Assembly: GCA_027083345.1 (NCBI GenBank)
Contig: JALWOZ010000008.1
Location: 5,006-69,005 of the forward strand
Direction: 5' to 3'
Origin: Candidatus Kaiserbacteria bacterium
Lineage (GTDB): Bacteria; Patescibacteriota; Minisyncoccia; Phycocordibacterales; UBA2100
DNA length: 64,000 nt
Positions 6,379-64,000 of the stretch are shown piece after piece; position 1 is the first letter of the stretch; every line of letters begins with the position of its first letter. The position numbers and the translations under genes were made by a program. Under the pieces are notes generated by a model. It was not told where the DNA came from. It searched no databases and was given only the letters and a program-made list of their open reading frames with translations.

Positions 6379-7059
6379 TTATTGCTCTAAAGATACATCT
6401 CTAGGATAACTGCCAACAAAGTCGGCTGTAACTATCCACCTATCAGCCTTTTTGCCTAAGGTATTACAAGTAACCAATGTAATCTGCTGTACTCCTGGCT
6501 TTGGAGTAAAGTCTATTATAGCGTCGGAGGCCTTCCTCATCTCTTTATTGCTCACTGTATATACATATTCTTTATCTCCACTTATAAGCTTTATAACATT
6601 ACCCTCCTCTAAATGTGGGACCTGATTAAAAGCTTGATACATCTTATTGTGCACCGTACGATAGCTAGTAGAATGGCCTAAAATAAGCATATTACCGTCT
6701 CTACCTAAAGTACCTGAACCCGGATAACGGATAATAGATGTTAACAACTCTTGGTTCAGCACTTTTACATCTGTTGTATTCGGATTAGTTAAAGGTAAAT
6801 CCACTCCAAAGGCAGGCATAGTGAGTCTGGTCGGTAGGATAACCCTAGTCTCAACCGGTTTGAGCTTCTCTTGTTCTGCCTTTTTCTGCTCTTCCTCTAA
6901 TCTTTTTACAACTTCTGCTCTCTCTTTATTGCTCAGAGACCCGTCTACATAATAAGGTACAAAACCTACAGAATTTAATACTGTTAAAGATAATACAAAT
7001 ACCCACGCAGTAACAACTATATATAAAAATCCACTAGGTTTGTTTCTACCTGCTATCAT
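6379..7059 (-). CDS. Sortase family transpeptidase (class D/E-like)
   Basis: N-terminal TM anchor, then NMLILGHST (His motif), QITLVTCNTLG (TLxTC catalytic Cys) and a downstream R (ADRWIV). This is the canonical sortase triad arrangement. Confidence 0.8.
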   Translation of the reverse strand: MIAGRNKPSGFLYIVVTAWVFVLSLTVLNSVGFVPYYVDGSLSNKERAEVVKRLEEEQKKAEQEKLKPVETRVILPTRLTMPAFGVDLPLTNPNTTDVKVLNQELLTSIIRYPGSGTLGRDGNMLILGHSTSYRTVHNKMYQAFNQVPHLEEGNVIKLISGDKEYVYTVSNKEMRKASDAIIDFTPKPGVQQITLVTCNTLGKKADRWIVTADFVGSYPRDVSLEQ

Positions 7060-25997: not shown

Positions 25998-26069
25998 GGT
26001 CCTATAGTATAATGGTTAGTACATCGCCCTCTCACGGCGGAGATCGGGGTTCGACTCCCCGTAGGATCA
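25998..26069 (+). tRNA. tRNA-Glu (anticodon CUC)
   Basis: Folded by hand. Acceptor GGTCCTA/TAGGATC (one G-U), D-arm with GG loop, anticodon stem TCGCC/GGCGG with loop CT-CTC-AC, 4-nt variable region, T-arm CGGGG-TTCGACT-CCCCG, discriminator A, no encoded CCA. Confidence 0.8.
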
Positions 26070-27756
26070 CATCAAGGGATTTTTGTCCCATATACTCATC
26101 AGATAGCCTGAAAATAGGCGACATTTTTGGTGTTCCATTAAGTATTTCTTGGTATGTTGGTGTTTCTTCAAATACAAGACCAAATAATGCCTGTTGAGTA
26201 CCTAAATCGTCATTATTTATAAGCATTTCTACTGGGTGTTCCATTAGATGTTTTGCATATCGTACAAATGCCTTTATTTTCTTCTCACTAACCTCAATAG
26301 TATTGCGTTGTGTCTCTGCCAATAGTATATCTTTTTCTAGTTGGTCTATTTCTTCCTCTTTCTTTTTTCTAACAACAGCACTCTCTATCATATCAAGTGC
26401 TTGAAGTTTTACCGCTTGTTGACTTTTTAGGTCTGCAACATTTCTATTTATTTGTGATGCTTCTTGCACTATGTCTTTTTCTCGTGCTCTATATCTTTTA
26501 AGGAGTACATACTCTAATGAGTTTGCAAAGTCATCTTCAAACTTCATATTTTCAACAAAGTGCTTTATATTTTTCTCAAACTCTTCTTTTGGTATACGAT
26601 TGTATTTATGTGCTCTCTTGCCAGTTTTATAACCCCCACAGTGGTATGCTGGGTGCTTTTTGCCAAGTTTACCTCTTGAAGCACTTCCCAATAATGGCTT
26701 TTTGCACTCTTGGCATAATAAAAACTTGAATGGATAATCTGGATTATTTTTATTACGTTGCTTCTGCCACGGAGAATAGTCTTTGAGTATTTTTATAGAA
26801 CCATCTTCATTCTCTTGTATAAAAACCTTTCCGTGGTTTGCTTTATTAAATAGTTCAATGGAAACTAAGCCGTCATATTGAGTACGTATAGGCTTATTGT
26901 GTGTCCATCTTTCAGTACGAATGCCAGCATAGATGGTTCTTTGTATGTATCTTTGCAGTTGCTTTACTGTAAGTTTATTCCCACCAACACTTCCGATTAT
27001 ATGCATTTTATCTTTACTCCATCTATTCATCTTAGGTGTTCTGAAACCCATTGCATTTAGTTTCTTAACAATCTCTTTATCTGGGACACCTCGTGCACGC
27101 AACTCAAACATTTTTATAAAATAATGTGCCCTGTCTGGGCTTGGAACTGCAATAAATCTCTTCTTTCCGTTAATAAGTACCTTTTTATTAGCATATCCAT
27201 CGTTTGCTCTGCGTACCGTATAACCGTCTTGTATAGTTCTTATTGAAGCACCAACCATTCTAGTTAAAATACCAGATACGTCATCTTCTGCCCTTTGTGC
27301 CTCCATAAGTTGTGCACTTGCAGTGGCAGAATGCTTACTCCAAGAGTACTCAAATCCTAAATCACCAAGTGTATTTATTTCAGGTTGTATTATTCCATAC
27401 GTGTCTACCAGTTCTACACCCAAACTTCTAAGACTGTCTTTCATACTTTGATAAGTAACAGCACCGTCTCTTGTAATCCTATCTATACTTTTTATTAAAT
27501 AATAGTGTACTTGTATACCTTTTGATTTTAACTCTTTTATGTATGTAAGTATCTGCTTAAAATCCTCTCTTTCTTCTGCACGTCCAGAATATACCTTACT
27601 AAATATATTAAGTGTATTCCATTTTTTTGCATCAGCATAACTTGTACACATCATCTTTTGCTCGTCTAAACCACCACCAGTGAGTTGTTTCTGGGAACTA
27701 ATCCTACAGTCTATTATGCAGTTTTTTTGCTCTTCTGGTTTTTTTAGAGTATTCAT
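26032..27756 (-). CDS. Large serine recombinase (phage-type serine integrase)
   Basis: N-terminal resolvase domain (CRISSQKQ with catalytic Ser; DRITRD), recombinase domain, Cys-rich zinc ribbon (CQECKKPL...YHCGGY) and a C-terminal coiled-coil. The last ~12 codons overlap the 3' end of the tRNA-Glu. Confidence 0.85.
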   Translation of the reverse strand: MNTLKKPEEQKNCIIDCRISSQKQLTGGGLDEQKMMCTSYADAKKWNTLNIFSKVYSGRAEEREDFKQILTYIKELKSKGIQVHYYLIKSIDRITRDGAVTYQSMKDSLRSLGVELVDTYGIIQPEINTLGDLGFEYSWSKHSATASAQLMEAQRAEDDVSGILTRMVGASIRTIQDGYTVRRANDGYANKKVLINGKKRFIAVPSPDRAHYFIKMFELRARGVPDKEIVKKLNAMGFRTPKMNRWSKDKMHIIGSVGGNKLTVKQLQRYIQRTIYAGIRTERWTHNKPIRTQYDGLVSIELFNKANHGKVFIQENEDGSIKILKDYSPWQKQRNKNNPDYPFKFLLCQECKKPLLGSASRGKLGKKHPAYHCGGYKTGKRAHKYNRIPKEEFEKNIKHFVENMKFEDDFANSLEYVLLKRYRAREKDIVQEASQINRNVADLKSQQAVKLQALDMIESAVVRKKKEEEIDQLEKDILLAETQRNTIEVSEKKIKAFVRYAKHLMEHPVEMLINNDDLGTQQALFGLVFEETPTYQEILNGTPKMSPIFRLSDEYMGQKSLDVILRGVEPRSPP

Positions 27757-31783: not shown

Positions 31784-32001
31784 TTAACTATGGCGTAGAC
31801 ATACAAAAAGCCCATCGCCAGAGGTGGACAGAAGCCCACTATGCAGGTTTCCCCACATAACCAGAAGAGCAGTCCCTGAACGACGGGTTCTTTACACTCT
31901 TCTGGTTTTTGCACCATACCTCTCAAATGAGAGGGTTAGGTACTCCATCTTGTTAGATGTTACCATTATTCTAACATAAGATTGCGATTTAACCTCACTC
32001 T

Positions 32002-41797: not shown

Positions 41798-44749
41798 TTA
41801 GAATCCGGAGATACCGGCGAAGGGGTCTGTTGGTTGTATCGGATTCTGTGGCTCTTTCTTTTTATATCTCTCTTGTATCTCTGCCTCTACCTCCTCTCTC
41901 GGTCTACCATATTTATTATATGACTCTTGTTTCAACTCCTCTATATGAGAGTAATCGGGTTCGTCGACTACAGGGAAAGTGATTATATCAAACGGAGCTG
42001 TCGGAGAGCCCCCAACGAGCATTTTTAAGTAAGCATTCCTATTCGGTAAACCTGTAATATCTCCAGCATTAAACTCAGGTTGAAACTCTTTCTCCAAAAA
42101 CTCTGCATCCTCTTGAGAGACCCTAAAGATGCATTTAGTACCGACATTACCAAATACAGCATCTCGTATTTCATCACTAAGTTGCTTTATGTATTGGTGG
42201 GCTAAATTAAGACTTAAAGCATATTTACGAGCCTCAGAGAGTATTGTAGCGATACTAGGTGTTGTAAAATTTTGGAATTCGTCTATATATAAGTAGAAGG
42301 GGTGCCTTTCTTCTTCAGGTAGATCTACCCTTGCAAGAGCAGACTGGAGTATCTTACTTACAAATATAAGTCCTAAAAGCTCTGCATTAATATCTCCAAT
42401 ACGACCCTTAGAGAGATTGACGAGTAATATTTTCTTATTGTTCATTATGTCAGATATACTAAAGGCACTCTTAGACTGAGCGATAATAGGACGCATTATC
42501 TCATTACCCATAAAGAGGTCTGTCTTAGCAGTGATATATGGCACTATATTCTCTAAGCTTGCTTCACCGCCCGCCTTCTCTGCTATCTCCTCCCAGAATT
42601 GGTTTACAACAGGGTTTTGACTGCGGGCTAAACAACTATGGCGAAATTCCTTATCAGAGAGCACTCTGGAGATATCTCCTATCGTAGCCGTACCATGCTC
42701 CATGCCCTCAAGTACCAACATAGCAGAGTTACGGAAGTATTGCTCAAACATAGGCCCCATACTCTCGGGACTCTTCTTGCCAAATATCTGCATGAAAATC
42801 TGGAAGAGCTCATTAACTACAAAAGTCTTTTCTTTTGGATCGTCCTTATTAAACTCCATAAAATTAAGACCCATAGGCATATCTGTATAACCAGGATCAA
42901 AATATATTACATCATTATGTCTATTTTCTGGCACGCTAGCTAATACATCCATAATATCTGAACCGTGCGGATCTATATAACAACAACCCTCTCCATTATT
43001 AATATCTTGTATTATCATCTGCTTCATCAAGAATGTTTTACCTGTACCGGTCTGGCCTATCTCATAAAAATGCCTCATCCTATCTATGCTACCAAATTTA
43101 ACTATGGTCTCATTAACCCCAAACTTATTCTTACCTAAGACTATGCCTTCTGTGTCTCCTACATCTATAGGAGCTGGTTTGTGTTTTGCCTTGTTTTGTT
43201 TTAACTCACGACTCGTTGATACAGCCTGCCCAGTTAAGTGATACATAGTTGTGAGCTCCTCTATAGATAAAGGGATTTGTTGTGAAGATGCAAAAATTCT
43301 CATAATAAATCCTCTCAGAGATTTGTTCAATTTAGCTCCTTTTAATCGCTTCCATACTATTACATTGCCTTGCCCTTTATCAAACTGATTAAATGTACTT
43401 GTTATATCCTCAAGAATCTCAACAGCACGAGGCCTAGTTGAGGCACTGGCAACTGCACGCACCGTTACGGGCACAACTCTTTTTGAGGATTTCTCAGTTA
43501 TAAGGTCTAGAGTTATCTGGTCTACAACATTAGACTGGGCATCCTCCCCTCTAGGAGACCTTATTGTATTTTTAAAATCAACCCATACCTTACTCCACAC
43601 TCCTCTATTCTTAGCTATGGCATCCTCGACGGTGTCTCCTTTGCGGATAGCATCTATTATTTTTTTATATTTTTTATTTATACTTGTCCCCTTATTGCCT
43701 ATGACAAATTGTAAAGATGCTCCTTCTCCATGTTTCTGCAATTTAGAAAAGGCAGACAAAATCACATTCAAAGGATCATGTGTAAACTCTTTATAAACTT
43801 TAAGCGGATATATCTCATCTCTACCCAACTGCGCCTCAGCACAAGCATCTTCTCCAGAGTTATTAAAGATATTATAATCATTACGTTGCTCCTCTATAAC
43901 AGCGTCAGGGAATATAGACAAAAAATGCTTCTCAAACATACCTTTTTTAGTTACTGGAACCGATACATAGAAAATAGCCTCCTCACTCCCCTCACTGACG
44001 GCTACCTCCACAGTAAATACTTTATTATTCTTCTTAGCTAATCCAAGAAAGTCCTTCCCCCCGTCGGTAGTAGTTAACAACCCTAGATACAATTGCTCCA
44101 TTGCGCCTAATAACTTCTCTAGCTCTTGTGCCTTATCACTCTCCTCTTTACTCTTAGGGGAGGAGACAGACACCTTGTACAATGTCATATGTAATGCTTG
44201 CCATATTTCCCCCGTATGTCGCAAATCTTTAACAGGCATACCCTCTTGTACATATTGAGCTAATATTCTATGTAAGTCATCCTCTATATGGTGATTACCT
44301 ATCTTTTTAGCCACTATTAAGGCATTCTTAATTCCCCTATCACGTGCTAAAGCCAACAGCTCATCTATTTGCCTATCATGCTCCTCTTGCTCTAAGCCTA
44401 TAGCCACTCCGGCCGACTCGTACTCCCCCATGGCATAATCATCTTGCAACACATTTTGCACAGGCTCTACTGAGTAGTCTTTGATAACTCTTTTATGTGC
44501 TCTGTCTGACTCAAACTTATTACCACCTAAATCTAAATTATCTGGATGGGCTTGCAATTTCTCTTGGTGAGCCACCTTAGCCCTGAGATACTCCAACTCC
44601 TCTTGAGGGGAACTGAACCTATTGTCTACCGAATCTTTCTTTATGTTCACCTGCCCAGAGGCCGAATCCCTAACCTTTTTATTAGTATGCTCAGGTGGCG
44701 TAACAGTCTCATTTAGTATTATTGGTTCTTGTGCAATCTCCTTAGACAT
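41798..44749 (-). CDS. TraD/TraG/VirD4-like P-loop ATPase (type IV secretion coupling-protein family) with large N-terminal domain
   Basis: Walker A YEIGQTGTGKTFLM; LYIDEFQNFTTPSIATILSEARKYALSLNLAHQYIKQL (DE Walker B plus RK..QS..QL) as in TraD/VirD4-type ATPases; 983 aa. Confidence 0.5.
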   Translation of the reverse strand: MSKEIAQEPIILNETVTPPEHTNKKVRDSASGQVNIKKDSVDNRFSSPQEELEYLRAKVAHQEKLQAHPDNLDLGGNKFESDRAHKRVIKDYSVEPVQNVLQDDYAMGEYESAGVAIGLEQEEHDRQIDELLALARDRGIKNALIVAKKIGNHHIEDDLHRILAQYVQEGMPVKDLRHTGEIWQALHMTLYKVSVSSPKSKEESDKAQELEKLLGAMEQLYLGLLTTTDGGKDFLGLAKKNNKVFTVEVAVSEGSEEAIFYVSVPVTKKGMFEKHFLSIFPDAVIEEQRNDYNIFNNSGEDACAEAQLGRDEIYPLKVYKEFTHDPLNVILSAFSKLQKHGEGASLQFVIGNKGTSINKKYKKIIDAIRKGDTVEDAIAKNRGVWSKVWVDFKNTIRSPRGEDAQSNVVDQITLDLITEKSSKRVVPVTVRAVASASTRPRAVEILEDITSTFNQFDKGQGNVIVWKRLKGAKLNKSLRGFIMRIFASSQQIPLSIEELTTMYHLTGQAVSTSRELKQNKAKHKPAPIDVGDTEGIVLGKNKFGVNETIVKFGSIDRMRHFYEIGQTGTGKTFLMKQMIIQDINNGEGCCYIDPHGSDIMDVLASVPENRHNDVIYFDPGYTDMPMGLNFMEFNKDDPKEKTFVVNELFQIFMQIFGKKSPESMGPMFEQYFRNSAMLVLEGMEHGTATIGDISRVLSDKEFRHSCLARSQNPVVNQFWEEIAEKAGGEASLENIVPYITAKTDLFMGNEIMRPIIAQSKSAFSISDIMNNKKILLVNLSKGRIGDINAELLGLIFVSKILQSALARVDLPEEERHPFYLYIDEFQNFTTPSIATILSEARKYALSLNLAHQYIKQLSDEIRDAVFGNVGTKCIFRVSQEDAEFLEKEFQPEFNAGDITGLPNRNAYLKMLVGGSPTAPFDIITFPVVDEPDYSHIEELKQESYNKYGRPREEVEAEIQERYKKKEPQNPIQPTDPFAGISGF

Positions 44750-55341: not shown

Positions 55342-57255
55342 TTATTTTACTTTTATAAGTGCATACCCATAAGCATACGGGGTTCCAAATCTAGATTCAC
55401 CATCTTTAGTTGCTCTAATATTCGTCCAGCTAGGGTTTCTTATACTTAACTCTTGTAAAGATAACTTGACATCAACTTTCTCTCCTTTTAACTCAAACTC
55501 CATCCCATCTACAGGTACTTCTACCGAGGCGCCATTGTAATCATTTACTACTTTCTCGGGATTATTTATAATACTTTTATAAATATCTCTTAGAGAAAAC
55601 TCCTCTATAAAATCTGAACCTTTATATATCCTTAAGGCTTGATTTAGTGTACCCATAATAACTCTATAAGAGTTCTTTGATGTTATTACAGGGCTCTTGA
55701 TGCCAGACACCTCCAATTGCACGTAATAATCATATCCAGATACCGATATGACACCTCCTTTATTAAATACACTATGGTAAGACACGTAACCTTGATTTTG
55801 TAAGTCTACTGTACGTTGCTGTGGGCGCACCTTCAACCTATTAGTTAGCTCTCGCATCACATCCCAATAACCATACTCGTTTGTAGCAATTAGATAATCA
55901 TTGGTAAATATATTATTCATAGACCTACACCCATTGTGAGAACATAAATATCTTATAGAACTATAGATAGTGTCGCTTAATTTTGGATCTATGTCATCAT
56001 ACTTATTTAGTGGGTGTATAATACCCTCTTGATCTAAAATATTAGCCTCAATTAAACTAGATTTTAAGTGTGATAGTTGCCTATATTTTGGATAAGCATA
56101 TACAGACCATGGCCCTATAGATATCAGAATGGTAAACAATATAAGACTCATAGGTATGACTCCCAGATATTTATTTTTAGAGAATATGAAATGTAAAGTT
56201 ATAACTGTTAACCAAATACCAAATACAACTACTAAATACCTATTTATAGTAAGATCATATTGTACGATGCGTAGAGATATAGCATAAAATAACATTATAA
56301 CCTGAGGCAAAACCAAAAATGGGAAGTATTTGCGAAAAGTCTCAGCAAAAGCAAAATCTTTAACAAAGACAAATAAAGCACTGTACACGAAGTATCCAAA
56401 TATAGAGAACACTATAACCAGCCAAGCAACCTCTCCATGTGGCCACTGAGAGAAATTAAATAAGACCTTAAGGCTATATGCGTACAATATAATTAAATAT
56501 ACAGATATGGCTGGCAAAGCCACAAACCTAACTAAAAAAGAGTAAAACTTATTATCTGTAAGAGTTTGGCCTACTCTCTTATCTGTTACCAAAGGCAAAT
56601 TGGTAAGAAAAAATATGGGAGCAAATAATACTAAAGACACATTAACCCAATGACTATATACCTTATCAAAATGTATATCAAATAAAGTTAAGATGGAGAA
56701 AAGAGCTACAGAGCCCATCACCAATGTTACTATTCCTATAACAACAGATTTTATTATGTTTATACATAATTCATATGTAAGTACATAAAACTCATTTTGG
56801 TCAACTTTCCTCTCTATTATACTCTTTACAAAAGGTGCTATAAATATGGCGGAAGAAACTCCGATCATCGTAACAACTACATATACAAAATTCTCAGTAT
56901 AAAAATCAGTTAATAAGTTATCTTCAAAAAAATAGTAAAATACTCCTCCAAATATTATAGTCAACACTTGATTGCGCCATACTGTAAAACTACTTAGTCT
57001 ATATGTCTCTGCGTGCATATATACAGCAATAGATAATAAAAACATTACCACCAAAGTAACAATACTTTTACCTATTATGCTGGCTACATAAACACTCAGA
57101 TTGTCTGAGACTATAAGATAAACAAATGCTGTAAAAGCCATCAATACAAAAACAATAGACATTGGAACTCTCTCAAATGTCTTTCTTAAGGTCTCTATAA
57201 TTATATCTACACTAAACTTTGAGTTTATTTTTTTAAATATATTAAATTTATACAT
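55342..57255 (-). CDS. Hypothetical polytopic membrane protein with ~240-aa C-terminal soluble domain
   Basis: ~12 TM helices, then a hydrophilic domain; located at the end of the glycan cluster. It may be a GT-C-type glycosyltransferase or polymerase, but I did not recognise a motif. Confidence 0.35.
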   Translation of the reverse strand: MYKFNIFKKINSKFSVDIIIETLRKTFERVPMSIVFVLMAFTAFVYLIVSDNLSVYVASIIGKSIVTLVVMFLLSIAVYMHAETYRLSSFTVWRNQVLTIIFGGVFYYFFEDNLLTDFYTENFVYVVVTMIGVSSAIFIAPFVKSIIERKVDQNEFYVLTYELCINIIKSVVIGIVTLVMGSVALFSILTLFDIHFDKVYSHWVNVSLVLFAPIFFLTNLPLVTDKRVGQTLTDNKFYSFLVRFVALPAISVYLIILYAYSLKVLFNFSQWPHGEVAWLVIVFSIFGYFVYSALFVFVKDFAFAETFRKYFPFLVLPQVIMLFYAISLRIVQYDLTINRYLVVVFGIWLTVITLHFIFSKNKYLGVIPMSLILFTILISIGPWSVYAYPKYRQLSHLKSSLIEANILDQEGIIHPLNKYDDIDPKLSDTIYSSIRYLCSHNGCRSMNNIFTNDYLIATNEYGYWDVMRELTNRLKVRPQQRTVDLQNQGYVSYHSVFNKGGVISVSGYDYYVQLEVSGIKSPVITSKNSYRVIMGTLNQALRIYKGSDFIEEFSLRDIYKSIINNPEKVVNDYNGASVEVPVDGMEFELKGEKVDVKLSLQELSIRNPSWTNIRATKDGESRFGTPYAYGYALIKVK

Positions 57256-57296: not shown

Positions 57297-57345
57297 ACTC
57301 AGCAAACAAAAACCGCACTCAATGTGCGGTTTTTGTTTGCTGAGT
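57297..57345. terminator. Perfect 22-bp stem hairpin (ACTCAGCAAACAAAAACCGCAC-tcaat-GTGCGGTTTTTGTTTGCTGAGT)
   Basis: Seen directly, 20 nt downstream of the stop of 57368..58162 (minus strand). Confidence 0.75.
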
Positions 57346-57367: not shown

Positions 57368-58162
57368 TTAGTTTGAGCCATCTTTCTTTCTCTTCCAAAT
57401 TAAGAAGAATCCAGTAAGAACGATAAAGATACCTAACCAGTAATACCACTTCATTCCTCCATTACTACTCTTAGGATTTGCTGCGGCCGCTAACTGATCT
57501 GTAGATGTGCTTGTAGTAGCTGTCTCCGTTGTGGTAGTAGCCTCAGCAGTTGTTGTAGCTATTGTTGTTGTAGTTTTGCTCAGGCTCTTTTTACCTGTTG
57601 TATTGCCCTTAGCTCCCGTAGTTGGAGTCTTTGGCAGAGAAGGTGGAGTTATAGTAGCATCTGACTTAGGTTGAGTCGTAGGCACCACAGGTGCCGGAGC
57701 GCTCACTGTAAACACTGCACTAGGAGATGTACCGGTCTTATCTGCGTTATTATTGTCCAACAATTTAGCACTTGAAGAGACAGATACAGTAGTTTGTCCA
57801 TCTGCCTTAGCTTTAAATGTGATTGTCGCAACCTTTGTAGATGCTGTAATGCCCGGATTAAAAGCTACATTATCTACAACCGTACCTGCGGTGTTATCTG
57901 TCTTGGATCCTACGTGAGCCAAGATATTACCACCTGAGGTGGGTGTGTAAGCAGTAACCTCTAACTTACTAGCTGGGAAATTGAGCATGACTTTAGTGGC
58001 AGTAATAGTCTCACCAGCTCCGGGATTAACATACACAGAAGTTGTTATAGTATCTCCTGTATGGTAGTTACCAACAGCAGGTACGAAGGTGAAGTTAGCA
58101 GCTTGAACACTCATCGGTGCAACTATTGCCAATGCTAAGGCTATAATAAATGTCTTTTTCAT
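57368..58162 (-). CDS. Secreted cohesin-like domain protein with T/P-rich linker and C-terminal TM anchor
   Basis: Signal peptide. The ~130-aa domain FTFVPAVGNYHTGDTITTSVYVNPGAGETITATKVMLNFPASKLEVTAY...ATITFKAKADGQTTVSVSS follows the cohesin beta-sandwich pattern. C-terminal WYYWLGIFIVLTGFFLIWKRKKD. Confidence 0.5.
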   Translation of the reverse strand: MKKTFIIALALAIVAPMSVQAANFTFVPAVGNYHTGDTITTSVYVNPGAGETITATKVMLNFPASKLEVTAYTPTSGGNILAHVGSKTDNTAGTVVDNVAFNPGITASTKVATITFKAKADGQTTVSVSSSAKLLDNNNADKTGTSPSAVFTVSAPAPVVPTTQPKSDATITPPSLPKTPTTGAKGNTTGKKSLSKTTTTIATTTAEATTTTETATTSTSTDQLAAAANPKSSNGGMKWYYWLGIFIVLTGFFLIWKRKKDGSN

Positions 58163-58202
58163 AATTTTTCTTTAATTTTAATTAATCTTAATACTTTAAT
58201 AA

Positions 58203-58805
58203 TTATCCTGTCCATGTTGTAGACAAAGTATTAAGATCAAATATGTCTACTTTACCATCACAGTTGGTGTCTCCGGTACTGTCAGTAGCTGTTGAGCTAC
58301 CAAAGTTTGCAGATAATATATTAAGATCAAATATGTCTACTTTACCATCGTTGTTAAAGTCAGCATCAGATGTACAAGATGCAGGTGGCACAACACCTCC
58401 ACCACCACCTCCCCCACCACCACTGGCAGGAGCAGATCCTGAGTTTATAGTATAAGAGTAAGATGCCACACCAGACTCGGCTCCTCCAGGGTAACATGCT
58501 ATAGCCTTAAGAGTAAGTGATGCAGACACATTTACTGCTCCACTGTAGAGTGTGCCTGCTCCAGAACAACTTGGTGTTGAGCCATCAGTTGTGTAGTAGA
58601 TAGCTGTTGAGCCTGTGCTTGTGAGTGTTACGCTTTGCGCTCCGGTGTATGTCCCCGCCGGCGGGTTTGCCAACGGGTTGGACATTACCGTGCCTGTTAC
58701 ACCTGTTTGTACTCCCGTTGAGAGCGTACCGGTCTGCTCTGAGGCAAATACTGGTGTAGAAGTAATTGCGAGGAGCAGAAATGTTGTGAATATATATTTC
58801 TTCAT
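58203..58805 (-). CDS. Secreted protein with CHB_HEX_C-like (Fn3-like) domain, poly-Gly linker and C-terminal dockerin-like double repeat
   Basis: PPAGTYTGAQSVTLTSTGSTAIYYTTDGSTPS...; GGGGGGGGG linker; DFNNDGKVDIFDLNILSANFG and DTNCDGKVDIFDLNTLSTTW match the D.N.DG.V...D...L pattern of dockerin calcium-binding repeats. Confidence 0.6.
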   Translation of the reverse strand: MKKYIFTTFLLLAITSTPVFASEQTGTLSTGVQTGVTGTVMSNPLANPPAGTYTGAQSVTLTSTGSTAIYYTTDGSTPSCSGAGTLYSGAVNVSASLTLKAIACYPGGAESGVASYSYTINSGSAPASGGGGGGGGGVVPPASCTSDADFNNDGKVDIFDLNILSANFGSSTATDSTGDTNCDGKVDIFDLNTLSTTWTG

Positions 58806-58832
58806 AATCTGTTTTTAATTATCTCCCCACTT

Positions 58833-61800
58833 TTATAATGACCTCACTCCGTAACTTGTTGAGTATGAGCCACTTGTTGTACCGACCGGTACTTTCATCT
58901 CTACATATACTGTTACCTGGCGACCTCCCTTGCTTGCATCTTCATCAATTGCTGATACGTCGATGTTTGTAGCTGGATACGCTCCATTTGCTGTAATAGC
59001 TGTCCAAGTTGCGTCATCTACTGAGTAGCGCATATTGTTTGCCGCGTCAAGCGTATTTGTGCCACTTACCCATTGGTCAAACTTCATTGCAAGGTTAGTC
59101 TCTGTAAGGTTATTAAGTGTGATGTTGAACTTCCACTTCCAACCATTTGCATAAGTGTCGTCTGCCACAGCGTAGCTCTTTATAGCCTGTATTGAGTCTA
59201 CTGAGAGTCCTGTACTTGATGCCGCTGTAGTAAAGCTCATTGGTATTGAGTAACTTGTCTGACCATTTTTTACAAAGCGTACTTGGTAGTAGTAAGTAGT
59301 GTTTGCAGTTAGGCCACTTAGAGCTTGTGAACCACTTGCTCCACCTATTGTCATAGCTGTCCAAGTGCCACTATATGGTGTGATTGCCACGCGATAGTCT
59401 CCGCTTGCCGGTGTAGCGTCTGTCGCCCAGTCTATCTGTGCAGATGTATCTGCCACAGCTGATACTGAGAGCCCTGTTAGGTTGATAGCCCCACCTTGTG
59501 CTGTCTGCTGTGTGTAAACCTTTACACGCTCGTTGCCTGCTGAATCCTTTACACTTACTCGTACATAGTAGAGCGTATCTGACGTTAGTCCACTTACTGT
59601 CTTTGAAAGAGGCCCTGCAGCATACGCTGCACTGTATGCAACTGTCTGGTCTATTGAACCAAAGTTTGAGTCAGTGTCTACCTCTATCTTAACGTCGAAG
59701 CTCTCGTCGGCAGATGTAACTACGTCGAATCCTGCACTAACTACATTTGCAAAGCTTGATGTAAAATCAGGTGCTGTAGTATCTAAACATGCTGAAGTTG
59801 TAAATGTTGCATTGCTTGTTGGAGTTGCAAGATTACCACTTGCATCCCTAGCTGCTACTTGGAAGTTATATGTAGTACCGCATGCTAGTCCACCAAGTGT
59901 AATACCGTTGTTACCATTTGACATTGTTTGCCATGTTGTAACATTACCATAGCTACTTGTTGTTCCGTAGCTTACCTTTGCTTCTCCTGCCTCGTCGGAA
60001 GTGAAATTAATTGATGCGCCAGTTTGAGTTATAGCTGTTACAGCCGGAGATGTAAGAGCTATTGTTGGTGCTGTTGTGTCGTTAGGATTTACGACATGTA
60101 CTGTTAGTGAAGCATCTTTTTCATTGCCCACTGCGTCTTTGACTGTAATGTTGAAGTTGTGAACTCCAGCAGACATTGATGAATCTGAGTACGTAACAGT
60201 AAGTGTTGTTCCAGATAGGTTTATGCTTGTGTTTGCCGAAGCCTTAACATCAGACCCGTCCATTGTGAAGCTCACTACATTATTTCCTGCAGTGGCATCA
60301 AATGCCGTATCATCTGTAAAGGTAAACACTACATCCGACACGCTTCCAACTGTTTGCTCTATACTTGGTGCTGTGCTTGTTAGAGTAGGTGCTGTTGTAT
60401 CTGTCGCTGTTGCTGACTCATCCACGGTAAGAATACCACTTTGAACTCCGTTGTTGCTGAGATCGTATGCTTCTGCGTAGTATTTTGTTTGAACACCTTG
60501 TGGTAGGTTTACCAAGACCTCCCAATGCCCTTCTGTAGGACCAAAGGTAAATGTGCCTACTTCTACATCGTTTGTTCCAGATGGCGATCCTCCAACCATG
60601 CGGAATACCTTAACGAGTTTGTAATTTGAGTCAGTTACATTACCTGTGATATTGTATGTGTCTGCGTCAATGTTTACTGTTGTTCCAGCTCCGTCTAATG
60701 TGATAACCGGTGCAGTAGTGTCGCTGGAGACACTAAGCGTCTCTGTTAAGATATCGTTTGAGCCATTACTGTCTTTATCAAGTGGCTCGTCATTAACAGT
60801 ATCTTTACCGACAACATAAACATTGTAAGTATTTCCTCCGGCTACACCAGGTATCGCGCTTGGCACAATTGTCTTTTTGTATGTCTTTGTTTTGCCACCG
60901 TTTGAGATTTGGTCTTCTGTCATTGCCCCAAGGTCAACTGCTGAGCCACCCACTTCAATATAGAGCTCAGCTCCGTTTGGTGCCACATCGTCATTTACCG
61001 TAGCGGTAATCACTACCGGTATATTCATTCCCGCTGCAGCAGGTGTAACTTCAAGTCCTGTTGTTTGCGGATAAGTTGAATCCACAACCACATCCATAAC
61101 AAGCCCGGAAAGAATGTGCATCACATTTCCGCTTGTGTCTTGCGCGTCGTTATTTGAATGGAATGTGTATGTTCCGCTTGCAGGAGTTCCTGACTCTATA
61201 TGTGCAGTTGCACCATGGGTAGAATCAAAGTATGTGCCTGTCCACTTGTTGCCCGTAAAGTAATTTGTGGCAGCTGGAGATGTTGCCGCTATCTCATGCC
61301 CGGCAACACCAAACAATGAGGGGAAACCTAATGTTCCAGATCCAGTAAGAGTATGTGCTCCCGTCTCCATATCCTCAGAGAAAGTAAGTGTCACATTTAC
61401 ACTATCACCAATACCAGCTGGGTTAGCTACAGCGCTGAATGCAGTAAGCACTGGCTGTGCACCATCTGTAATTGCTGTATTTGTCTGAGCAACTGCTTGG
61501 TTGTTCATCCAGTCTTTTACAACTCCTGCGACATAAGTAATGTCTAGGGGTGCTGTAGTTTGATCTACGTCTGATGAATCCAAAGATAACCCGATTATTT
61601 TATTATTGGTTGGGTTTGCAGGACCATTTGGTACCGTTACGCTTGACACTGTAATTTCTGCACCATTTGGTGCCACTTTAACTGTGTAATCACTGCCCGT
61701 AGTTGAGCTAGTTGTCACATCCTCAGAGTACACAAGAGTCATTATTGCAGTGTTACCACTTCCGTCTCCGGTTGTCTTTGTTAGTGGGTCTGCTGTGAGA

Positions 61801-63980
61801 AGTACCGGCGCTGCCTTGTCCACAATCTCTGCATGTACCTGCGATATGAGAGTGTTATTTATATTACTTGCAGAATCTTGTAGGGAGAATGAATTTTGAG
61901 TGTCAAATGTGATACTTACAGTATCATCACGAGTGTCTACAGGAGTCGCCGGTGTACCAAGAGGTATTGTCACATCACTTCCACCAACTGTAAGTAAGTC
62001 TGTTGCATTAGATCCAAATGCCATATTTGTAAAGTCTCCAACACTTGTAAATACAAGATCATTAGCACTTAGAAAAGAAGATGCTGTGACATATTCTGAG
62101 AAGAGCAATTTAACACTATCAATTTTACCATCCCCATTACCATCAAGATATTGAAGCTCTTTGATTTGCGGTTTTGCCTTATCATTTGCATAAACTGCAC
62201 TTATGTCTGCTAACTTATTGCCAGCCGGGTCTTTAATATCGTCGCCTCCATCGTTTGTATACTTGTAGTGCATTTTATGTGTACCAGAAACAACTGATGG
62301 CACTGAATTAAAGTATAGTTTTGCATAATCATCATAAGAGTCATGGTCAACAGCAAGAACATCTACTTGCTCACTGAATTGATCAAAGTTCTCCCATGTA
62401 TTAGCCCCATCTGAGCTTAATGCCCAGTCCGCTACCGCATTGGATGTAAATGTAGCATCATCCATATACTCTGAGAATTGAAGCTCGAGAGTATCTACGA
62501 TTCCGTCCGGAGATGTACCTCTGTCAACAGTTGCTGTGTCTATTACAACCGGTGCTGCGGCGTCAACCATTGTAGTTGCCCCTGAGGCTATCGCTGTCCA
62601 TAGGTTGCCTGCGGCATCTTGCAACGTGTCTGTAGTGTTGTAAGTGTAAGACCATGTTGGCTCTGAACCTCCATTTGCTCCCGTTTGGTTTGTGGTCGCG
62701 CCTGCTGTGGTAAAGAATACATTGTCATCTCCATCTCCAACACCCCCAATTGCGTTAGGGTTTGTAAATCCCGTAAGAGCTCCCGATGAAGTAATTGCTG
62801 TTCCGGCCTCTATGTTTCCAAAAGATCCATGCGGCGTAATTGATATGTCTTCAGAGAAATACACCCTAAACCTATCCACACTTGATAGAGCTGACGGGTC
62901 GTTGAAGTACTCAGTCTTAATGGCAACGGGAGCTGCACCATCTGCCGGTGTGCTGTGGCTACCCGGGTCAGCTTGAGTAAGCTCATTTCCAGGTAGGTCT
63001 TTTACAGATTGACCAGATGATATTGCCATAAGAGGAGTTGCGTCTGTGTCCGGAGTGCCGCTCTCGGGCATTGCCAGAGTTACAAATCCTGCAGGTGCTT
63101 CTATTGCCGTTGTTATAGGCGTATGTCCGTTAACCGTAAAATCACCAGCTCCCAGCGCACCACCGTCTATATCCTCAGAAAATTGCACATACATTGTGTC
63201 TATCTGCCCATTGCTATCCGCATCATCTGTTTTTGAACCAACTATAGCAGGTTTTGCCCCGTCTGTCGCCGGAGCTGAAGCATACGCATTTGCAATATTT
63301 GTTGCAGGGTCCGCAAGAGTGCCCGGAGTGTAGGCGACATTTGATGTATCGTCTGTGTCACAACCTGTCTGGTCTGTGAAATCACAAGTATTTGCATTTT
63401 CTGTTACAGGTATTGTGAATGTATCATCTGTATTTGTTGTTGTGCTCCATGTACCGTTCGCTCCCAAAGTGTAAGAACCGTATGTGAAGCCCGTTGTGCT
63501 AGTGATTGAGTTGTCCATAGTCTCGTCAAACACAACTATAAGCTGATCTACCTTACCGTTACCATCTGAGTCGTTTGTAGTGGCTGATGATATTGTTGGT
63601 TTTGTATTATCAACCGTAAAGGCCGCGTCACTCTCATCGTTGATTGCCGGAGAGTTTACAACTACTTTTATCAAGCCGTTTGCTGACTCTGTGTTAGGAA
63701 TTGCCGTCGTATCCCAAGACCATGTGCCAACACTTGCTGTTATAGAACTGCCGGTGTATCCAACACCTTCCCATGTTGTACCTCCGTCTGGAGAATACAA
63801 AATGTCATTGACCGTAGTATCTGAACATTTTGGAGATACCCCATCGTCAGTACATATCCAAGTGATGCTTTGTGTAGCGTTCCAAGCTTCACCTCCGTTT
63901 GGAGCTGTTACTGTCACACTGCTAATAGCAGCACTGGCAGTTTGTGCCATTGCGAAAAGCGCAACGGCAAATATCGCCAT
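58833..63980 (-). CDS. Giant (1715 aa) secreted Thr/Ser/Asp-rich surface protein with multiple Fn3-like/Ig-like repeats (adhesin-like)
   Basis: Signal peptide MAIFAVALFAMAQTASA. Several Fn3-like modules (e.g. TAPTIALTSPAVTAITQTGASINFTSDEAGEAKVSYGTTSSYG...TTYNFQVAARDASGN; ...LTSDTLYYVRVSVKDSAGNE; ...LTANTTYYYQVRFVKNG). T/S/D/G low-complexity throughout. Confidence 0.7.
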   Translation of the reverse strand: MAIFAVALFAMAQTASAAISSVTVTAPNGGEAWNATQSITWICTDDGVSPKCSDTTVNDILYSPDGGTTWEGVGYTGSSITASVGTWSWDTTAIPNTESANGLIKVVVNSPAINDESDAAFTVDNTKPTISSATTNDSDGNGKVDQLIVVFDETMDNSITSTTGFTYGSYTLGANGTWSTTTNTDDTFTIPVTENANTCDFTDQTGCDTDDTSNVAYTPGTLADPATNIANAYASAPATDGAKPAIVGSKTDDADSNGQIDTMYVQFSEDIDGGALGAGDFTVNGHTPITTAIEAPAGFVTLAMPESGTPDTDATPLMAISSGQSVKDLPGNELTQADPGSHSTPADGAAPVAIKTEYFNDPSALSSVDRFRVYFSEDISITPHGSFGNIEAGTAITSSGALTGFTNPNAIGGVGDGDDNVFFTTAGATTNQTGANGGSEPTWSYTYNTTDTLQDAAGNLWTAIASGATTMVDAAAPVVIDTATVDRGTSPDGIVDTLELQFSEYMDDATFTSNAVADWALSSDGANTWENFDQFSEQVDVLAVDHDSYDDYAKLYFNSVPSVVSGTHKMHYKYTNDGGDDIKDPAGNKLADISAVYANDKAKPQIKELQYLDGNGDGKIDSVKLLFSEYVTASSFLSANDLVFTSVGDFTNMAFGSNATDLLTVGGSDVTIPLGTPATPVDTRDDTVSITFDTQNSFSLQDSASNINNTLISQVHAEIVDKAAPVLLTADPLTKTTGDGSGNTAIMTLVYSEDVTTSSTTGSDYTVKVAPNGAEITVSSVTVPNGPANPTNNKIIGLSLDSSDVDQTTAPLDITYVAGVVKDWMNNQAVAQTNTAITDGAQPVLTAFSAVANPAGIGDSVNVTLTFSEDMETGAHTLTGSGTLGFPSLFGVAGHEIAATSPAATNYFTGNKWTGTYFDSTHGATAHIESGTPASGTYTFHSNNDAQDTSGNVMHILSGLVMDVVVDSTYPQTTGLEVTPAAAGMNIPVVITATVNDDVAPNGAELYIEVGGSAVDLGAMTEDQISNGGKTKTYKKTIVPSAIPGVAGGNTYNVYVVGKDTVNDEPLDKDSNGSNDILTETLSVSSDTTAPVITLDGAGTTVNIDADTYNITGNVTDSNYKLVKVFRMVGGSPSGTNDVEVGTFTFGPTEGHWEVLVNLPQGVQTKYYAEAYDLSNNGVQSGILTVDESATATDTTAPTLTSTAPSIEQTVGSVSDVVFTFTDDTAFDATAGNNVVSFTMDGSDVKASANTSINLSGTTLTVTYSDSSMSAGVHNFNITVKDAVGNEKDASLTVHVVNPNDTTAPTIALTSPAVTAITQTGASINFTSDEAGEAKVSYGTTSSYGNVTTWQTMSNGNNGITLGGLACGTTYNFQVAARDASGNLATPTSNATFTTSACLDTTAPDFTSSFANVVSAGFDVVTSADESFDVKIEVDTDSNFGSIDQTVAYSAAYAAGPLSKTVSGLTSDTLYYVRVSVKDSAGNERVKVYTQQTAQGGAINLTGLSVSAVADTSAQIDWATDATPASGDYRVAITPYSGTWTAMTIGGASGSQALSGLTANTTYYYQVRFVKNGQTSYSIPMSFTTAASSTGLSVDSIQAIKSYAVADDTYANGWKWKFNITLNNLTETNLAMKFDQWVSGTNTLDAANNMRYSVDDATWTAITANGAYPATNIDVSAIDEDASKGGRQVTVYVEMKVPVGTTSGSYSTSYGVRSL

Positions 63981-64000
63981 TGTTATTGTAGCAACTGTTT

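What the first reader, a model, noticed from the sequence alone, without database searches (positions are those of the whole stretch)
57368..58805. Adjacent cohesin-like and dockerin-like proteins: a minimal cohesin-dockerin pair
58203..58805 ends with two 22-aa segments, DFNNDGKVDIFDLNILSANFG and DTNCDGKVDIFDLNTLSTTW, matching the calcium-binding dockerin repeat. A chitobiase-C-like Fn3 domain and a Gly9 linker precede them. The neighbouring gene 57368..58162 encodes a signal peptide, a ~130-aa beta-sandwich region with a cohesin-like hydrophobic pattern, a T/P linker and a TM anchor. I read this as a membrane-anchored cohesin presenting a dockerin-bearing partner. Such modules outside cellulolytic Firmicutes are poorly characterised, and the pair could tether the giant adhesin or host-attachment factors.
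Basis: partly seen in the sequence, partly recalled or inferred. Interest (0 to 1): 0.65.

Follow-up and report, generated by a model that had tools for sequence, protein, structure and literature searches.

The report
Cohesin–dockerin surface anchor in Patescibacteria
Two neighbouring genes of an uncultivated ultra-small bacterium (Patescibacteria) encode a matched cohesin–dockerin "plug and socket" pair that most likely fastens a small adaptor protein, and through it a giant surface protein, to the cell membrane; other lineages use a cell-wall-binding module in its place.

Summary
On the minus strand, 58203..58805 encodes signal peptide, CHB_HEX_C_1 domain, Gly9 linker and a dockerin with two canonical Ca loops. 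57368..58162 encodes signal peptide, cohesin, Thr/Pro linker, TM helix and basic tail. Both Pfam hits exceed gathering scores. The AF2 model of the cohesin region matches only cohesins among the top 48 PDB hits.

Both genes are the last two of a three-gene unit (giant secreted protein, adaptor, anchor) closed by a 20-bp hairpin. The unit recurs in Patescibacteria metagenome contigs with different flanks.

In 80 loci recovered through the giant protein's conserved terminal domain, gene 2 keeps its N-terminal half. Its C-terminal module is a dockerin, PG_binding_1, SH3_3 or something else. A cohesin-TM gene follows in 24 of 24 non-redundant dockerin loci and 0 of 17 others.

I read it as a non-cellulosomal, one-to-one anchoring pair. 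It is not a cellulosome: there is one cohesin, one dockerin and no enzymes. Physical binding, and capture of the giant protein by the adaptor, are inferred rather than shown. Rating: new variant of a known kind, moderate interest.

The parts
58833..64000 (-). Gene 1: giant secreted surface protein, 1730 aa in the full contig. The start codon lies about 25 nt beyond the window end. It is acidic (pI 4.05), rich in Thr/Ala/Ser/Gly/Asp, has fn3 domains near the C-terminus, and has no anchor of its own.
   Evidence: ORF; full gene L001:4138-9330; Pfam fn3 only; composition; no cohesin or dockerin by family HMMs
58836..59240 (-). Conserved C-terminal domain (CTD, about 135 aa) of the giant protein: a beta-sandwich of no described family. 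It is the best-conserved part across distant cassettes and the proposed docking site for the adaptor (inferred).
   Evidence: Alignment A3; no Pfam hit; not cohesin by hhalign, probability 0.3%; AF2 pLDDT 81; best PDB fold hit only E 3.7e-3; 760 cluster representatives, mostly at the extreme end of 1000-2900 aa proteins
58203..58805 (-). Gene 2: adaptor protein of 200 aa. Signal peptide 1-21, conserved mature N-peptide 22-41, CHB_HEX_C_1 domain 48-114, Gly9 linker 129-137, dockerin 146-200.
58464..58664 (-). CHB_HEX_C_1 / Fn3_assoc beta-sandwich domain with two invariant Cys (C80, C104). Together with the N-peptide (58683..58742) it forms the constant half of gene 2 across all anchor types.
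   Evidence: Pfam 60.4 bits; invariant Cys in 42 of 42 sequences; conserved N-half in dockerin, PG_binding_1, SH3 and other variants
58206..58370 (-). Dockerin module with two Ca-binding loops, at 58326..58361 and 58236..58271, each followed by a near-identical helix segment (IFDLNxLS).
   Evidence: Pfam Dockerin_1 24.9 bits, above GA 22.9; the family profile hits PDB dockerins 2jnk/2ozn, 2y3n_B and 5lxv_B; motif positions; exceeds chance
57368..58162 (-). Gene 3: membrane anchor of 264 aa. Signal peptide 1-21, cohesin about 22-155, disordered Thr/Pro-rich linker to 236, QLAAAA motif 223-228, TM helix 239-261, KRKK tail.
57698..58099 (-). Cohesin domain (residues 22 to about 155).
   Evidence: Pfam Cohesin 28.5 bits, above GA 24.1; 9 of 11 family members hit Cohesin; AF2 pLDDT about 90 for residues 22-131; top 48 Foldseek PDB hits all cohesins, E 9e-6 to 4e-4
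57380..57448 (-). C-terminal TM helix plus basic tail (the membrane anchor). Borderline match to the LPXTG_anchor model, but there is no conserved xPxTG motif.
   Evidence: AF2 helix 239-261; TIGR01167 16.3 bits against cutoff 15.9; ortholog tails
57298..57344 (-). Terminator-like hairpin (20-bp stem, 9 G-C pairs) 24 nt after the stop codon of gene 3. It marks the end of the three-gene unit.
   Evidence: intergenic gaps of 27 nt and 40 nt within the unit against 112 nt after it

Best explanation
These are the last two genes of a three-gene operon in a Patescibacteria (CPR) bacterium. The operon builds a non-covalent anchoring chain on the cell surface.

- Gene 3 is a type-I membrane protein. 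It holds a single cohesin domain away from the membrane on a long, disordered Thr/Pro-rich stalk.
- Gene 2 is a small secreted adaptor. Its C-terminal dockerin, with two canonical Ca2+ loops, plugs into that cohesin in a 1:1 Ca-dependent complex.
- The adaptor's constant N-terminal half (a conserved 20-residue peptide plus a CHB_HEX_C_1 beta-sandwich) is proposed to hold the conserved terminal beta-sandwich of the giant secreted protein from gene 1, which has no anchor of its own.
- The giant protein would then be displayed as an adhesin fibre or surface-layer component.

In other lineages the dockerin-plus-cohesin gene pair is replaced by a PG_binding_1 or SH3_3 module fused directly to the adaptor. 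The cohesin-dockerin pair is therefore one of several interchangeable ways of fixing the same adaptor to the envelope.

Shown: domain identities, operon structure, conserved gene order, and strict dockerin/cohesin co-occurrence.

Inferred: physical cohesin-dockerin binding, Ca dependence, adaptor-giant binding, and the biological role (host or substrate attachment versus surface layer).

My confidence is about 0.85 that the two proteins are a cognate cohesin-dockerin anchoring pair, and about 0.5 that the adaptor also holds the giant protein. The overall figure given is for the whole chain.
For: - Domain calls: Pfam Cohesin, Dockerin_1 and CHB_HEX_C_1 are all above their gathering scores. This is consistent across the families: 9 of 11 for Cohesin, 37 of 42 for Dockerin_1.
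- Cohesin fold: AF2 pLDDT about 90, and only cohesins among the top 48 PDB matches.
- Dockerin: the family profile hits solved dockerins, best being C. perfringens NagH 2jnk/2ozn at E 1.8e-5. Both loops are DxNxDGxxDxxD. The motif occurs only here in 64 kb and never in 200 shuffles.
- Operon: same strand, gaps of 27 and 40 nt, and a 20-bp hairpin after gene 3.
- Conserved cassette: the giant, adaptor, cohesin-TM order recurs with unrelated flanks in L003, L005, L009, L011, L012 and L013.
- Wider survey: 185 metagenome loci carry the giant's terminal domain. Among the 80 kept, a CHB_HEX_C gene follows within about 120-270 nt in nearly all loci with enough DNA.
- Co-occurrence: cohesin-TM follows in 24 of 24 non-redundant dockerin-type loci and 0 of 17 non-dockerin loci. 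Fisher p = 6.6e-12, not corrected for phylogeny.
- Anchor swapping: the alternative C-modules are PG_binding_1 (7 of 10 sampled), SH3_3 and CARDB.
- Constant half: the adaptor's N-peptide and CHB_HEX_C domain are conserved in all anchor types.
- Co-evolution: dockerin-cohesin distance matrices correlate best of all domain pairs, r = 0.80, partial r = 0.46, permutation p about 5e-4.
- Stoichiometry: only one dockerin and one cohesin are found in the window and its flanks.
Against: - No binding data, and no complex model could be computed.
- The family profile of the cohesin protein finds no PDB cohesin by sequence, so cohesin membership rests on the Pfam HMM and a predicted fold.
- Adaptor-giant contact is inferred from gene order only. 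The giant's terminal domain has no informative structural relative.
- The mirror-tree signal discriminates weakly: CTD-dockerin r = 0.80 as well.
- The loci are phylogenetically related, so the Fisher p-value overstates independence.
- 10 of 28 dockerins in the related loci have only one canonical loop, and 1 has none.
- The rest of the genome was not available, so additional dockerin partners for this cohesin cannot be excluded.
- One MAG (L007) keeps the cohesin gene but has lost the giant gene and half of gene 2. The anchor can therefore persist without its proposed cargo, unless the assembly is wrong.
Confidence: 0.6

Rival explanations
1. The cohesin-dockerin pair is real, but the cargo is the CHB_HEX_C domain itself. 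On this reading a small lectin-like tip is displayed on the membrane stalk to bind host or environmental glycans, and the giant protein is merely co-transcribed without being physically attached.
For: CHB_HEX_C_1 is typically found in glycan-active enzymes (family description; 6q63 beta-hexosaminidase hit). No evidence of direct contact with the giant protein was obtained. L007 retains the anchor without the giant gene.
Against: The CHB_HEX_C gene sits immediately downstream of a protein carrying the conserved terminal domain in nearly every locus, whatever the anchor type. The giant protein has a signal peptide but no anchor. The terminal domain is the most conserved part of otherwise divergent giants.
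Confidence: 0.2
2. The giant protein is the S-layer (surface lattice) subunit, and the cassette is its anchoring system. The same chain of contacts applies, but the role is structural envelope rather than adhesion.
For: The composition is typical of S-layer proteins: acidic pI 4.05, Thr/Ala/Ser/Asp-rich, 6 Cys in 1716 aa. A stand-alone terminal-domain protein lies next to an SLH-domain protein in L015. The alternative anchors bind the cell wall.
Against: The central region is highly variable and the size range across loci is 1000-2900 aa. The repetitive Ig/fn3 architecture fits fibrillar adhesins as well. No lattice-forming domain was recognised.
Confidence: 0.25
3. The cohesin protein is not a simple TM protein. 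Its C-terminus would be a sorting signal cleaved by the sortase encoded in the same window, attaching the cohesin covalently to peptidoglycan, as with sortase-anchored scaffoldins.
For: The TIGR01167 LPXTG_anchor model scores 16.3 bits against a cutoff of 15.9, and there are weak IsdC-tail hits. The window protein has NPKSS before the TM helix. A sortase gene lies at 6379..7059. A Q-x-A-A-[AV] motif is present in 12 of 23 distinct tails.
Against: NPKSS is absent from all orthologs, and no xPxTG-type motif is conserved. The sortase's own neighbour carries a better candidate signal, APYTG. The sortase is 50 kb away.
Confidence: 0.12
4. It is a miniature cellulosome-like enzyme complex for polysaccharide degradation.
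For: Cohesin and dockerin are the hallmark modules of cellulosomes. CHB_HEX_C_1 is named after chitobiases.
Against: There is a single cohesin and a single dockerin, with no glycoside hydrolase, CBM or multi-cohesin scaffoldin in the cassette or the 64-kb window. The dockerin protein has no catalytic domain. In sister lineages the dockerin is replaced by cell-wall-binding modules, not enzymes.
Confidence: 0.03

Closest known systems
Non-cellulosomal cohesin-dockerin pairs of Clostridium perfringens glycoside hydrolase toxins (NagH/NagJ; PDB 2ozn, 2jnk, 2jh2, 2vo8)
   Same: A single cohesin and a single dockerin used for 1:1 protein-protein attachment outside any cellulosome. The NagH dockerin is the best PDB sequence hit of the adaptor family, and the C. 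perfringens cohesins are among the best fold hits. The Ca-loop duplication is the same.
   Different: There the modules sit on large secreted enzymes and join enzymes to one another. Here the cohesin is on a dedicated membrane-anchor protein, the dockerin is on a 200-aa adaptor without a catalytic domain, the genes are adjacent in one operon, and the host is a Patescibacterium.
Cellulosome anchoring scaffoldins (e.g. C. thermocellum SdbA/OlpB with SLH domains; R. flavefaciens ScaE with a sortase signal)
   Same: A cell-bound protein carries a cohesin on a Thr/Pro-rich linker and receives the dockerin of the next component, which in turn carries the functional load. The logic is anchor, then adaptor, then cargo.
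   Different: No SLH domain or conserved sortase motif; anchoring is by a C-terminal TM helix. There is one cohesin only. The adaptor-cargo link is not a second cohesin-dockerin pair: the giant's terminal domain is not a cohesin. No enzymes are involved.
Cohesin/dockerin modules of archaea and other non-cellulolytic bacteria (Peer et al. 2009; ANME archaea, PMC9012536; Omnitrophota giant ORFs, PMC10066038)
   Same: Cohesin/dockerin modules are used in organisms that do not degrade cellulose, with proposed roles in cell-surface assembly or cell-cell adhesion. They often occur without multi-cohesin scaffoldins.
   Different: Those reports are domain inventories. Here there is a fixed three-gene cassette, a strict dockerin/cohesin-gene co-occurrence, and interchangeability with PG_binding_1/SH3 anchors, none of which I found described.
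Cell-wall-binding anchoring of Gram-positive surface proteins (PG_binding_1, SH3b, SLH, LysM modules)
   Same: Non-covalent retention of secreted proteins at the envelope by a dedicated C-terminal module. In sister loci the adaptor carries exactly such modules.
   Different: In the window the retention module is a dockerin that needs a separately encoded, membrane-embedded cohesin receptor rather than binding the wall polymer directly.

Membership tests
Cohesin (Pfam PF00963) | Sequence match to the family HMM above the curated threshold | tested here: met
   28.5 bits against GA 24.1, residues 27-143 covering HMM positions 5-129 of 139. 9 of 11 family members match at E <= 0.01, best 4.4e-8. 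L012 and L011 orthologs are also above GA.
Cohesin (Pfam PF00963) | Nine-stranded flattened beta-sandwich (jelly-roll) fold like solved cohesins | tested here: met
   AF2 model, residues 22-131 at pLDDT about 90. The top 48 Foldseek PDB hits are all type I, type II or C. perfringens cohesins, E 9e-6 to 4e-4, probability 1.0. Caveats: this is a predicted structure, and the ninth strand (about 148-153) has low confidence.
Cohesin (Pfam PF00963) | Binds a cognate dockerin | not testable with these tools
   Only indirect evidence: the adjacent dockerin gene, co-occurrence of 24 of 24 against 0 of 17, and the mirror-tree result.
Dockerin type I (Pfam PF00404) | Sequence match to the family HMM above the curated threshold | tested here: met
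   24.9 bits against GA 22.9. 37 of 42 family members match, best 1.1e-9. The family profile hits PDB dockerins 2jnk, 2y3n_B, 5lxv_B, 4fl4_A and 2vn6_B.
Dockerin type I (Pfam PF00404) | Tandem duplicated ~22-residue segments, each with a 12-residue Ca2+ loop carrying D/N at positions 1, 3, 5, 9 and 12, followed by a helix | tested here: met
   DFNNDGKVDIFD (149-160) and DTNCDGKVDIFD (179-190), 30 residues apart, each followed by LNxLS. The motif occurs nowhere else in the six frames of the window.
Dockerin type I (Pfam PF00404) | Ca2+-dependent folding and cohesin binding | not testable with these tools
   Needs ITC, pull-down or CD with and without Ca2+/EDTA.
Cellulosome | Scaffoldin with multiple cohesins integrating several dockerin-bearing enzymes | tested here: not met
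   Family HMMs find one cohesin and one dockerin in the window and in L001. Gene 3 has a single cohesin.
Cellulosome | Dockerins borne by glycoside hydrolases or other CAZymes, with a CBM on the scaffoldin | tested here: not met
   The dockerin protein has only CHB_HEX_C_1/Fn3_assoc, and there is no catalytic domain or CBM in the cassette. Whole genome not available.
Sortase-anchored (LPXTG-type) surface protein | Conserved LPXTG-like pentapeptide, then a hydrophobic segment and a basic tail | tested here: inconclusive
   The hydrophobic segment and basic tail are present in all 23 distinct tails. TIGR01167 is borderline at 16.3 against 15.9. No pentapeptide is conserved: NPKSS occurs only in the window protein, and Q-x-A-A-[AV] occurs in 12 of 23. 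A sortase is present in the window.
CHB_HEX_C_1 (Pfam PF13290) | Sequence match above the curated threshold | tested here: met
   60.4 bits against GA 22; 40 of 42 family members match.

The most novel reading that the evidence does not exclude
The cassette may represent an undescribed, Patescibacteria-wide modular system for mounting giant surface proteins.

- A novel ~135-aa terminal beta-sandwich, in 760 sequence clusters with no Pfam family, would act as a universal 'handle' on giant proteins.
- A dedicated CHB_HEX_C adaptor would capture that handle, possibly through its conserved mature N-terminal peptide in a donor-strand-like manner. The handle's weak best fold matches include Fim pilins.
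- The adaptor would be fixed to the envelope by interchangeable modules: a dockerin paired with a membrane cohesin, PG_binding_1, or SH3b.

If these giant proteins mediate host attachment in episymbiotic CPR bacteria, this would be the anchoring machinery of their host-contact apparatus.
Probability: 0.35. Interest if true: 0.72.

Novelty: new variant of a known kind. Interest (0 to 1): 0.52.

Why it matters
Patescibacteria (CPR) make up a large share of bacterial diversity. Most are thought to live attached to other cells, yet how they build and anchor their surface apparatus is largely unknown.

This locus offers a concrete, testable wiring diagram:
- a giant secreted protein with a conserved terminal handle;
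- a small adaptor;
- a membrane cohesin receptor.

Sister lineages supply a natural experiment, because the cohesin-dockerin link is replaced there by wall-binding modules.

The locus also extends cohesin-dockerin biology to a dedicated one-to-one membrane anchor encoded as an adjacent gene pair. It supplies dozens of natural cognate pairs that could be mined for orthogonal protein-protein connectors. It also flags a large, unannotated domain family of 760 clusters.

A dockerin-domain surface protein was reported as essential in the cultivated Saccharibacterium Southlakia epibionticum (PMC10633639). That protein has a different architecture, so it is only a loose precedent.

Tried and rejected
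- PDB sequence-profile search with the cohesin family alignment found nothing at E <= 1. The fold-level search was needed instead.
- I tested whether the giant's C-terminal domain is a second cohesin. It is rejected: hhalign probability 0.3%, no Pfam hit, no PDB sequence hit, and Foldseek best E 3.7e-3 to GH123 N-domains and Fim pilins.
For the same reason I did not attempt a fused cohesin-linker-dockerin construct, so no complex model exists.
- Sortase-substrate reading: NPKSS looked like a Listeria-type SrtB motif (from my own memory), but it is not conserved in any ortholog.
- The cellulosome reading is rejected, because no enzymes and no scaffoldin are present.
- SEML1_0315, the essential dockerin protein of a cultivated Saccharibacterium, was checked as a possible homologous cassette. 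It is a stand-alone 927-aa gene with unrelated neighbours.
- The cluster look-up gave no names or accessions.
- Literature searches for a prior description of cohesin/dockerin in Patescibacteria found only domain mentions. The Peer et al. 2009 review itself is not held in the library.
Full report
**1. The observation**

Both ORFs exist exactly at the stated coordinates, on the minus strand.

The 200-aa product of 58203..58805 has these features:
- Pfam CHB_HEX_C_1 at 60.4 bits, Fn3_assoc at 51.6 bits, and Dockerin_1 at 24.9 bits against a gathering score of 22.9.
- A predicted signal peptide at residues 1-21, judged by eye.
- A Gly9 run at residues 129-137.
- Two 12-residue loops, DFNNDGKVDIFD (149-160) and DTNCDGKVDIFD (179-190). 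Both carry Asp/Asn at the calcium-ligand positions 1, 3, 5, 9 and 12.

That loop motif occurs only twice in all six reading frames of the 64-kb window, both times here. It never occurred in 200 codon-shuffled windows.

The 264-aa product of 57368..58162 has these features:
- Pfam Cohesin at 28.5 bits against a gathering score of 24.1, residues 27-143.
- An N-terminal signal peptide, a Thr/Pro-rich linker, a C-terminal hydrophobic helix and a KRKK tail.

**2. Are the domain calls sound?**

A profile built from the cohesin protein's 11-member family (A1) finds no cohesin in the PDB by sequence. I therefore tested the fold.
- AlphaFold2 on A1 gives a beta-sandwich for residues 22-131 at pLDDT about 90, a disordered 132-236 linker and a helix at 239-261.
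- Foldseek against the PDB returns only cohesins in the top 48 places. These include type I, type II and the non-cellulosomal Clostridium perfringens cohesins, at E 9e-6 to 4e-4.
- 9 of 11 family members hit Pfam Cohesin individually.

For the dockerin:
- A 42-member family profile (A2) hits solved dockerins. The best is the C. perfringens NagH dockerin 2jnk/2ozn at E 1.8e-5, followed by 2y3n_B and 5lxv_B.
- 37 of 42 members hit Pfam Dockerin_1.

**3. Context**

The contig is a metagenome scaffold, ENA ERZ23491061 scaffold_269, 74 kb. The closest genome-collection relative of the cohesin protein is in a MAG titled 'Patescibacteria group bacterium'.

The two genes follow a giant gene on the same strand. 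That gene is 1730 aa, and its start codon lies about 25 nt beyond the window end. The intergenic gaps are 27 nt and 40 nt. A 20-bp-stem hairpin follows 24 nt after the cohesin gene's stop codon. I read this as a three-gene transcription unit, which is an inference.

The giant protein has a signal peptide, an acidic Thr/Ala/Ser/Asp-rich composition (pI 4.05) and fn3 domains near its C-terminus. It has no TM segment, dockerin, cohesin or wall-binding module.

**4. The cassette is conserved**

The order giant protein, then CHB_HEX_C-dockerin protein of about 200 aa, then cohesin-TM protein of about 250-270 aa recurs with different flanking genes:
- in close relatives L003, L005, L009 and L011;
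- in distant ones L012 (JGI 3300027819) and L013 (Hainich groundwater), whose cohesin domains are far more divergent.

The best-conserved part of the giant proteins is their last ~135 residues (A3). For this terminal domain:
- There is no Pfam family.
- It is not detectably a cohesin, with hhalign probability 0.3%.
- It is modelled as a beta-sandwich at pLDDT 81.
- It has no convincing PDB relative. The best matches, at E 3.7e-3, are GH123 N-domains and Fim pilins.

An exhaustive HMM search finds the domain in 760 cluster representatives, 676 of them at E <= 1e-10. It nearly always sits at the extreme C-terminus, and sometimes at the N-terminus, of proteins of 1000-2900 aa.

**5. A natural experiment**

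Scanning metagenome contigs for the terminal domain gave 185 loci, of which 80 were kept. I scanned them with HMMs built here for the terminal domain, CHB_HEX_C, dockerin, cohesin, PG_binding_1 and SH3.

A CHB_HEX_C gene follows the terminal domain within about 120-270 nt in nearly all loci that have enough downstream DNA. Gene 2 keeps a constant N-terminal half in every case. That half consists of:
- the signal peptide;
- a conserved mature peptide, SE-TGTL-TG--TG--G-V;
- the CHB_HEX_C sandwich with two invariant cysteines.

Its C-terminal module varies. Among 58 non-redundant loci it is a dockerin in 29, PG_binding_1 in 16, SH3_3 in 1 and something else in 12. Pfam confirmed these calls on a sample of ten.

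Where gene 2 is complete and at least 500 nt follow it, a cohesin-plus-TM gene comes next in 24 of 24 dockerin-type loci and in 0 of 17 others. Fisher p is 6.6e-12, not corrected for shared ancestry. No cohesin occurs anywhere in the non-dockerin loci.

This is the strongest evidence available here that this dockerin and this cohesin are functional partners. It also suggests that together they do the job a wall-binding module does elsewhere, namely fixing the adaptor to the envelope.

Pairwise distances of the dockerin and cohesin modules correlate best of all domain pairs, at r = 0.80. The partial r is 0.46 after controlling for the other two domains, with permutation p about 5e-4. CTD-dockerin is nearly as high, so I treat this only as weak support.

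**6. Mechanism proposed**

- Gene 3 inserts into the membrane by its C-terminal helix and holds one cohesin on a roughly 80-residue disordered stalk. The domains and topology are shown at the prediction level.
- Gene 2's dockerin binds that cohesin with Ca2+. This is inferred from family knowledge and the co-occurrence result.
- The two dockerin repeats are nearly identical in their helix segments (IFDLNILS and IFDLNTLS). In known type I dockerins this goes with a dual binding mode. That is an inference from my own knowledge.
- Gene 2's constant N-half holds the giant protein by its terminal domain. This rests on gene order and module swapping only.

Whether the giant protein is an adhesin fibre or an S-layer subunit cannot be decided from these data.

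**7. What it is not**

It is not a cellulosome. There is one cohesin and one dockerin, with no enzymes, CBM or scaffoldin.

A sortase-anchored reading is not supported:
- The NPKSS motif before the TM helix is unique to the window protein.
- No xPxTG motif is conserved among 23 distinct tails.
- A looser Q-x-A-A-[AV] motif is present in 12 of the 23 and remains unexplained.
- A sortase gene does exist 50 kb away, but its own neighbour is a better candidate substrate.

**8. Comparison with what is known**

Non-cellulosomal cohesin and dockerin modules are documented across bacteria and archaea. Sources: Peer et al. 2009, as cited in PMC9012536 and PMC10066038; the ANME section of PMC9012536 read; and Omnitrophota giant ORFs with dockerins.

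The closest solved system is the C. perfringens NagH/NagJ pair. Functionally the arrangement resembles cellulosome anchoring scaffoldins, with the logic anchor, adaptor, cargo. It differs in having a TM anchor, a single cohesin, and a non-cohesin adaptor-cargo link.

I found no description of this cassette, or of the interchangeability of a cohesin-dockerin pair with PG_binding_1/SH3 anchors, in the held literature. The essential dockerin-domain protein SEML1_0315 of a cultivated Saccharibacterium has a different architecture and different neighbours.

**9. Verdict**

- The pair itself is a new member of a known kind.
- The dedicated adjacent-gene membrane anchor, used as one interchangeable option in a conserved giant-protein mounting cassette, makes it a new variant of a known kind.
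- Interest is moderate at 0.52. It is ordinary for cohesin-dockerin specialists at the domain level, but a useful and directly testable lead for CPR cell-surface biology.

Noticed in passing
window 6379..7059 (-), 5738..6292 (-), 4811..5635 (-): A sortase gene (Pfam Sortase 64.9 bits, TLVTC active-site motif). Its downstream neighbour ends in NAPYTGM, then a TM segment, then RK, so it is a candidate LPXTG-like substrate. The next gene also ends in a TM segment plus basic tail but has no motif.
   Followed up: partly
window 31824..31942 (-): LOOT RNA motif (Rfam RF03000), full length, 79.2 bits against a gathering score of 46.4.
   Followed up: no
window 25998..26070 (+) and 26032..27756 (-): tRNA-Glu(CTC) overlaps the 3' end of a large serine recombinase gene (Resolvase, Recombinase and Zn_ribbon_recom domains). 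This may be the boundary of an integrated mobile element.
   Followed up: no
window 41798..44749 (-): A 983-aa protein with TrwB/TraG-D type IV secretion coupling-protein domains.
   Followed up: no
window 58000..64000: GC content rises from about 0.34 to about 0.44 across the giant gene. The Thr/Ala/Gly/Asp-rich coding explains this, so it need not indicate foreign origin.
   Followed up: partly
window 58833..63980 (-), giant protein residues 137, 253 and 613: Three internal DxDxDGx[IV]D...F[SD]E motifs (DSDGNGKVDQLIVVFDE, DADSNGQIDTMYVQFSE, DGNGDGKIDSVKLLFSE). They look like Ca-binding loops at the start of repeated Ig-like domains. The dockerin HMM does not detect them.
   Followed up: partly
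window 58203..58805 (-), residues C144 and C182: A cysteine just before dockerin loop 1 and one inside loop 2 co-occur across the family: both present in 5 sequences, both absent in 36, one alone in 1. This suggests an optional disulfide clasp across the dockerin.
   Followed up: partly
L007:1150-2482 (GCA_054027035.1): A decayed cassette. The HI0933-like gene normally lies upstream of the giant gene. Here it abuts a remnant of gene 2 (last ~100 aa, dockerin intact) followed by an intact cohesin gene. The giant gene and the 5' half of gene 2 are missing, through deletion or assembly collapse.
   Followed up: partly
L015:2250-4123: A stand-alone 169-aa protein made of a signal peptide plus the giant's terminal domain (P0137). 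It lies next to an SLH-domain protein, which hints that the domain belongs to surface-layer biology.
   Followed up: no
window 57455..57496 (-) and the cohesin-anchor tails in L016-L095: A Q-x-A-A-[AV] motif lies 10-20 residues before the TM helix in 12 of 23 distinct cohesin anchors, although the preceding linker is hypervariable. It could be a processing signal or have no function.
   Followed up: partly
window 55342..57255 (-): A DUF4153 polytopic membrane protein lies directly downstream of the terminator. It is also downstream of the cassette in L003 and L011 but not in other loci, so it is probably not part of the system.
   Followed up: partly
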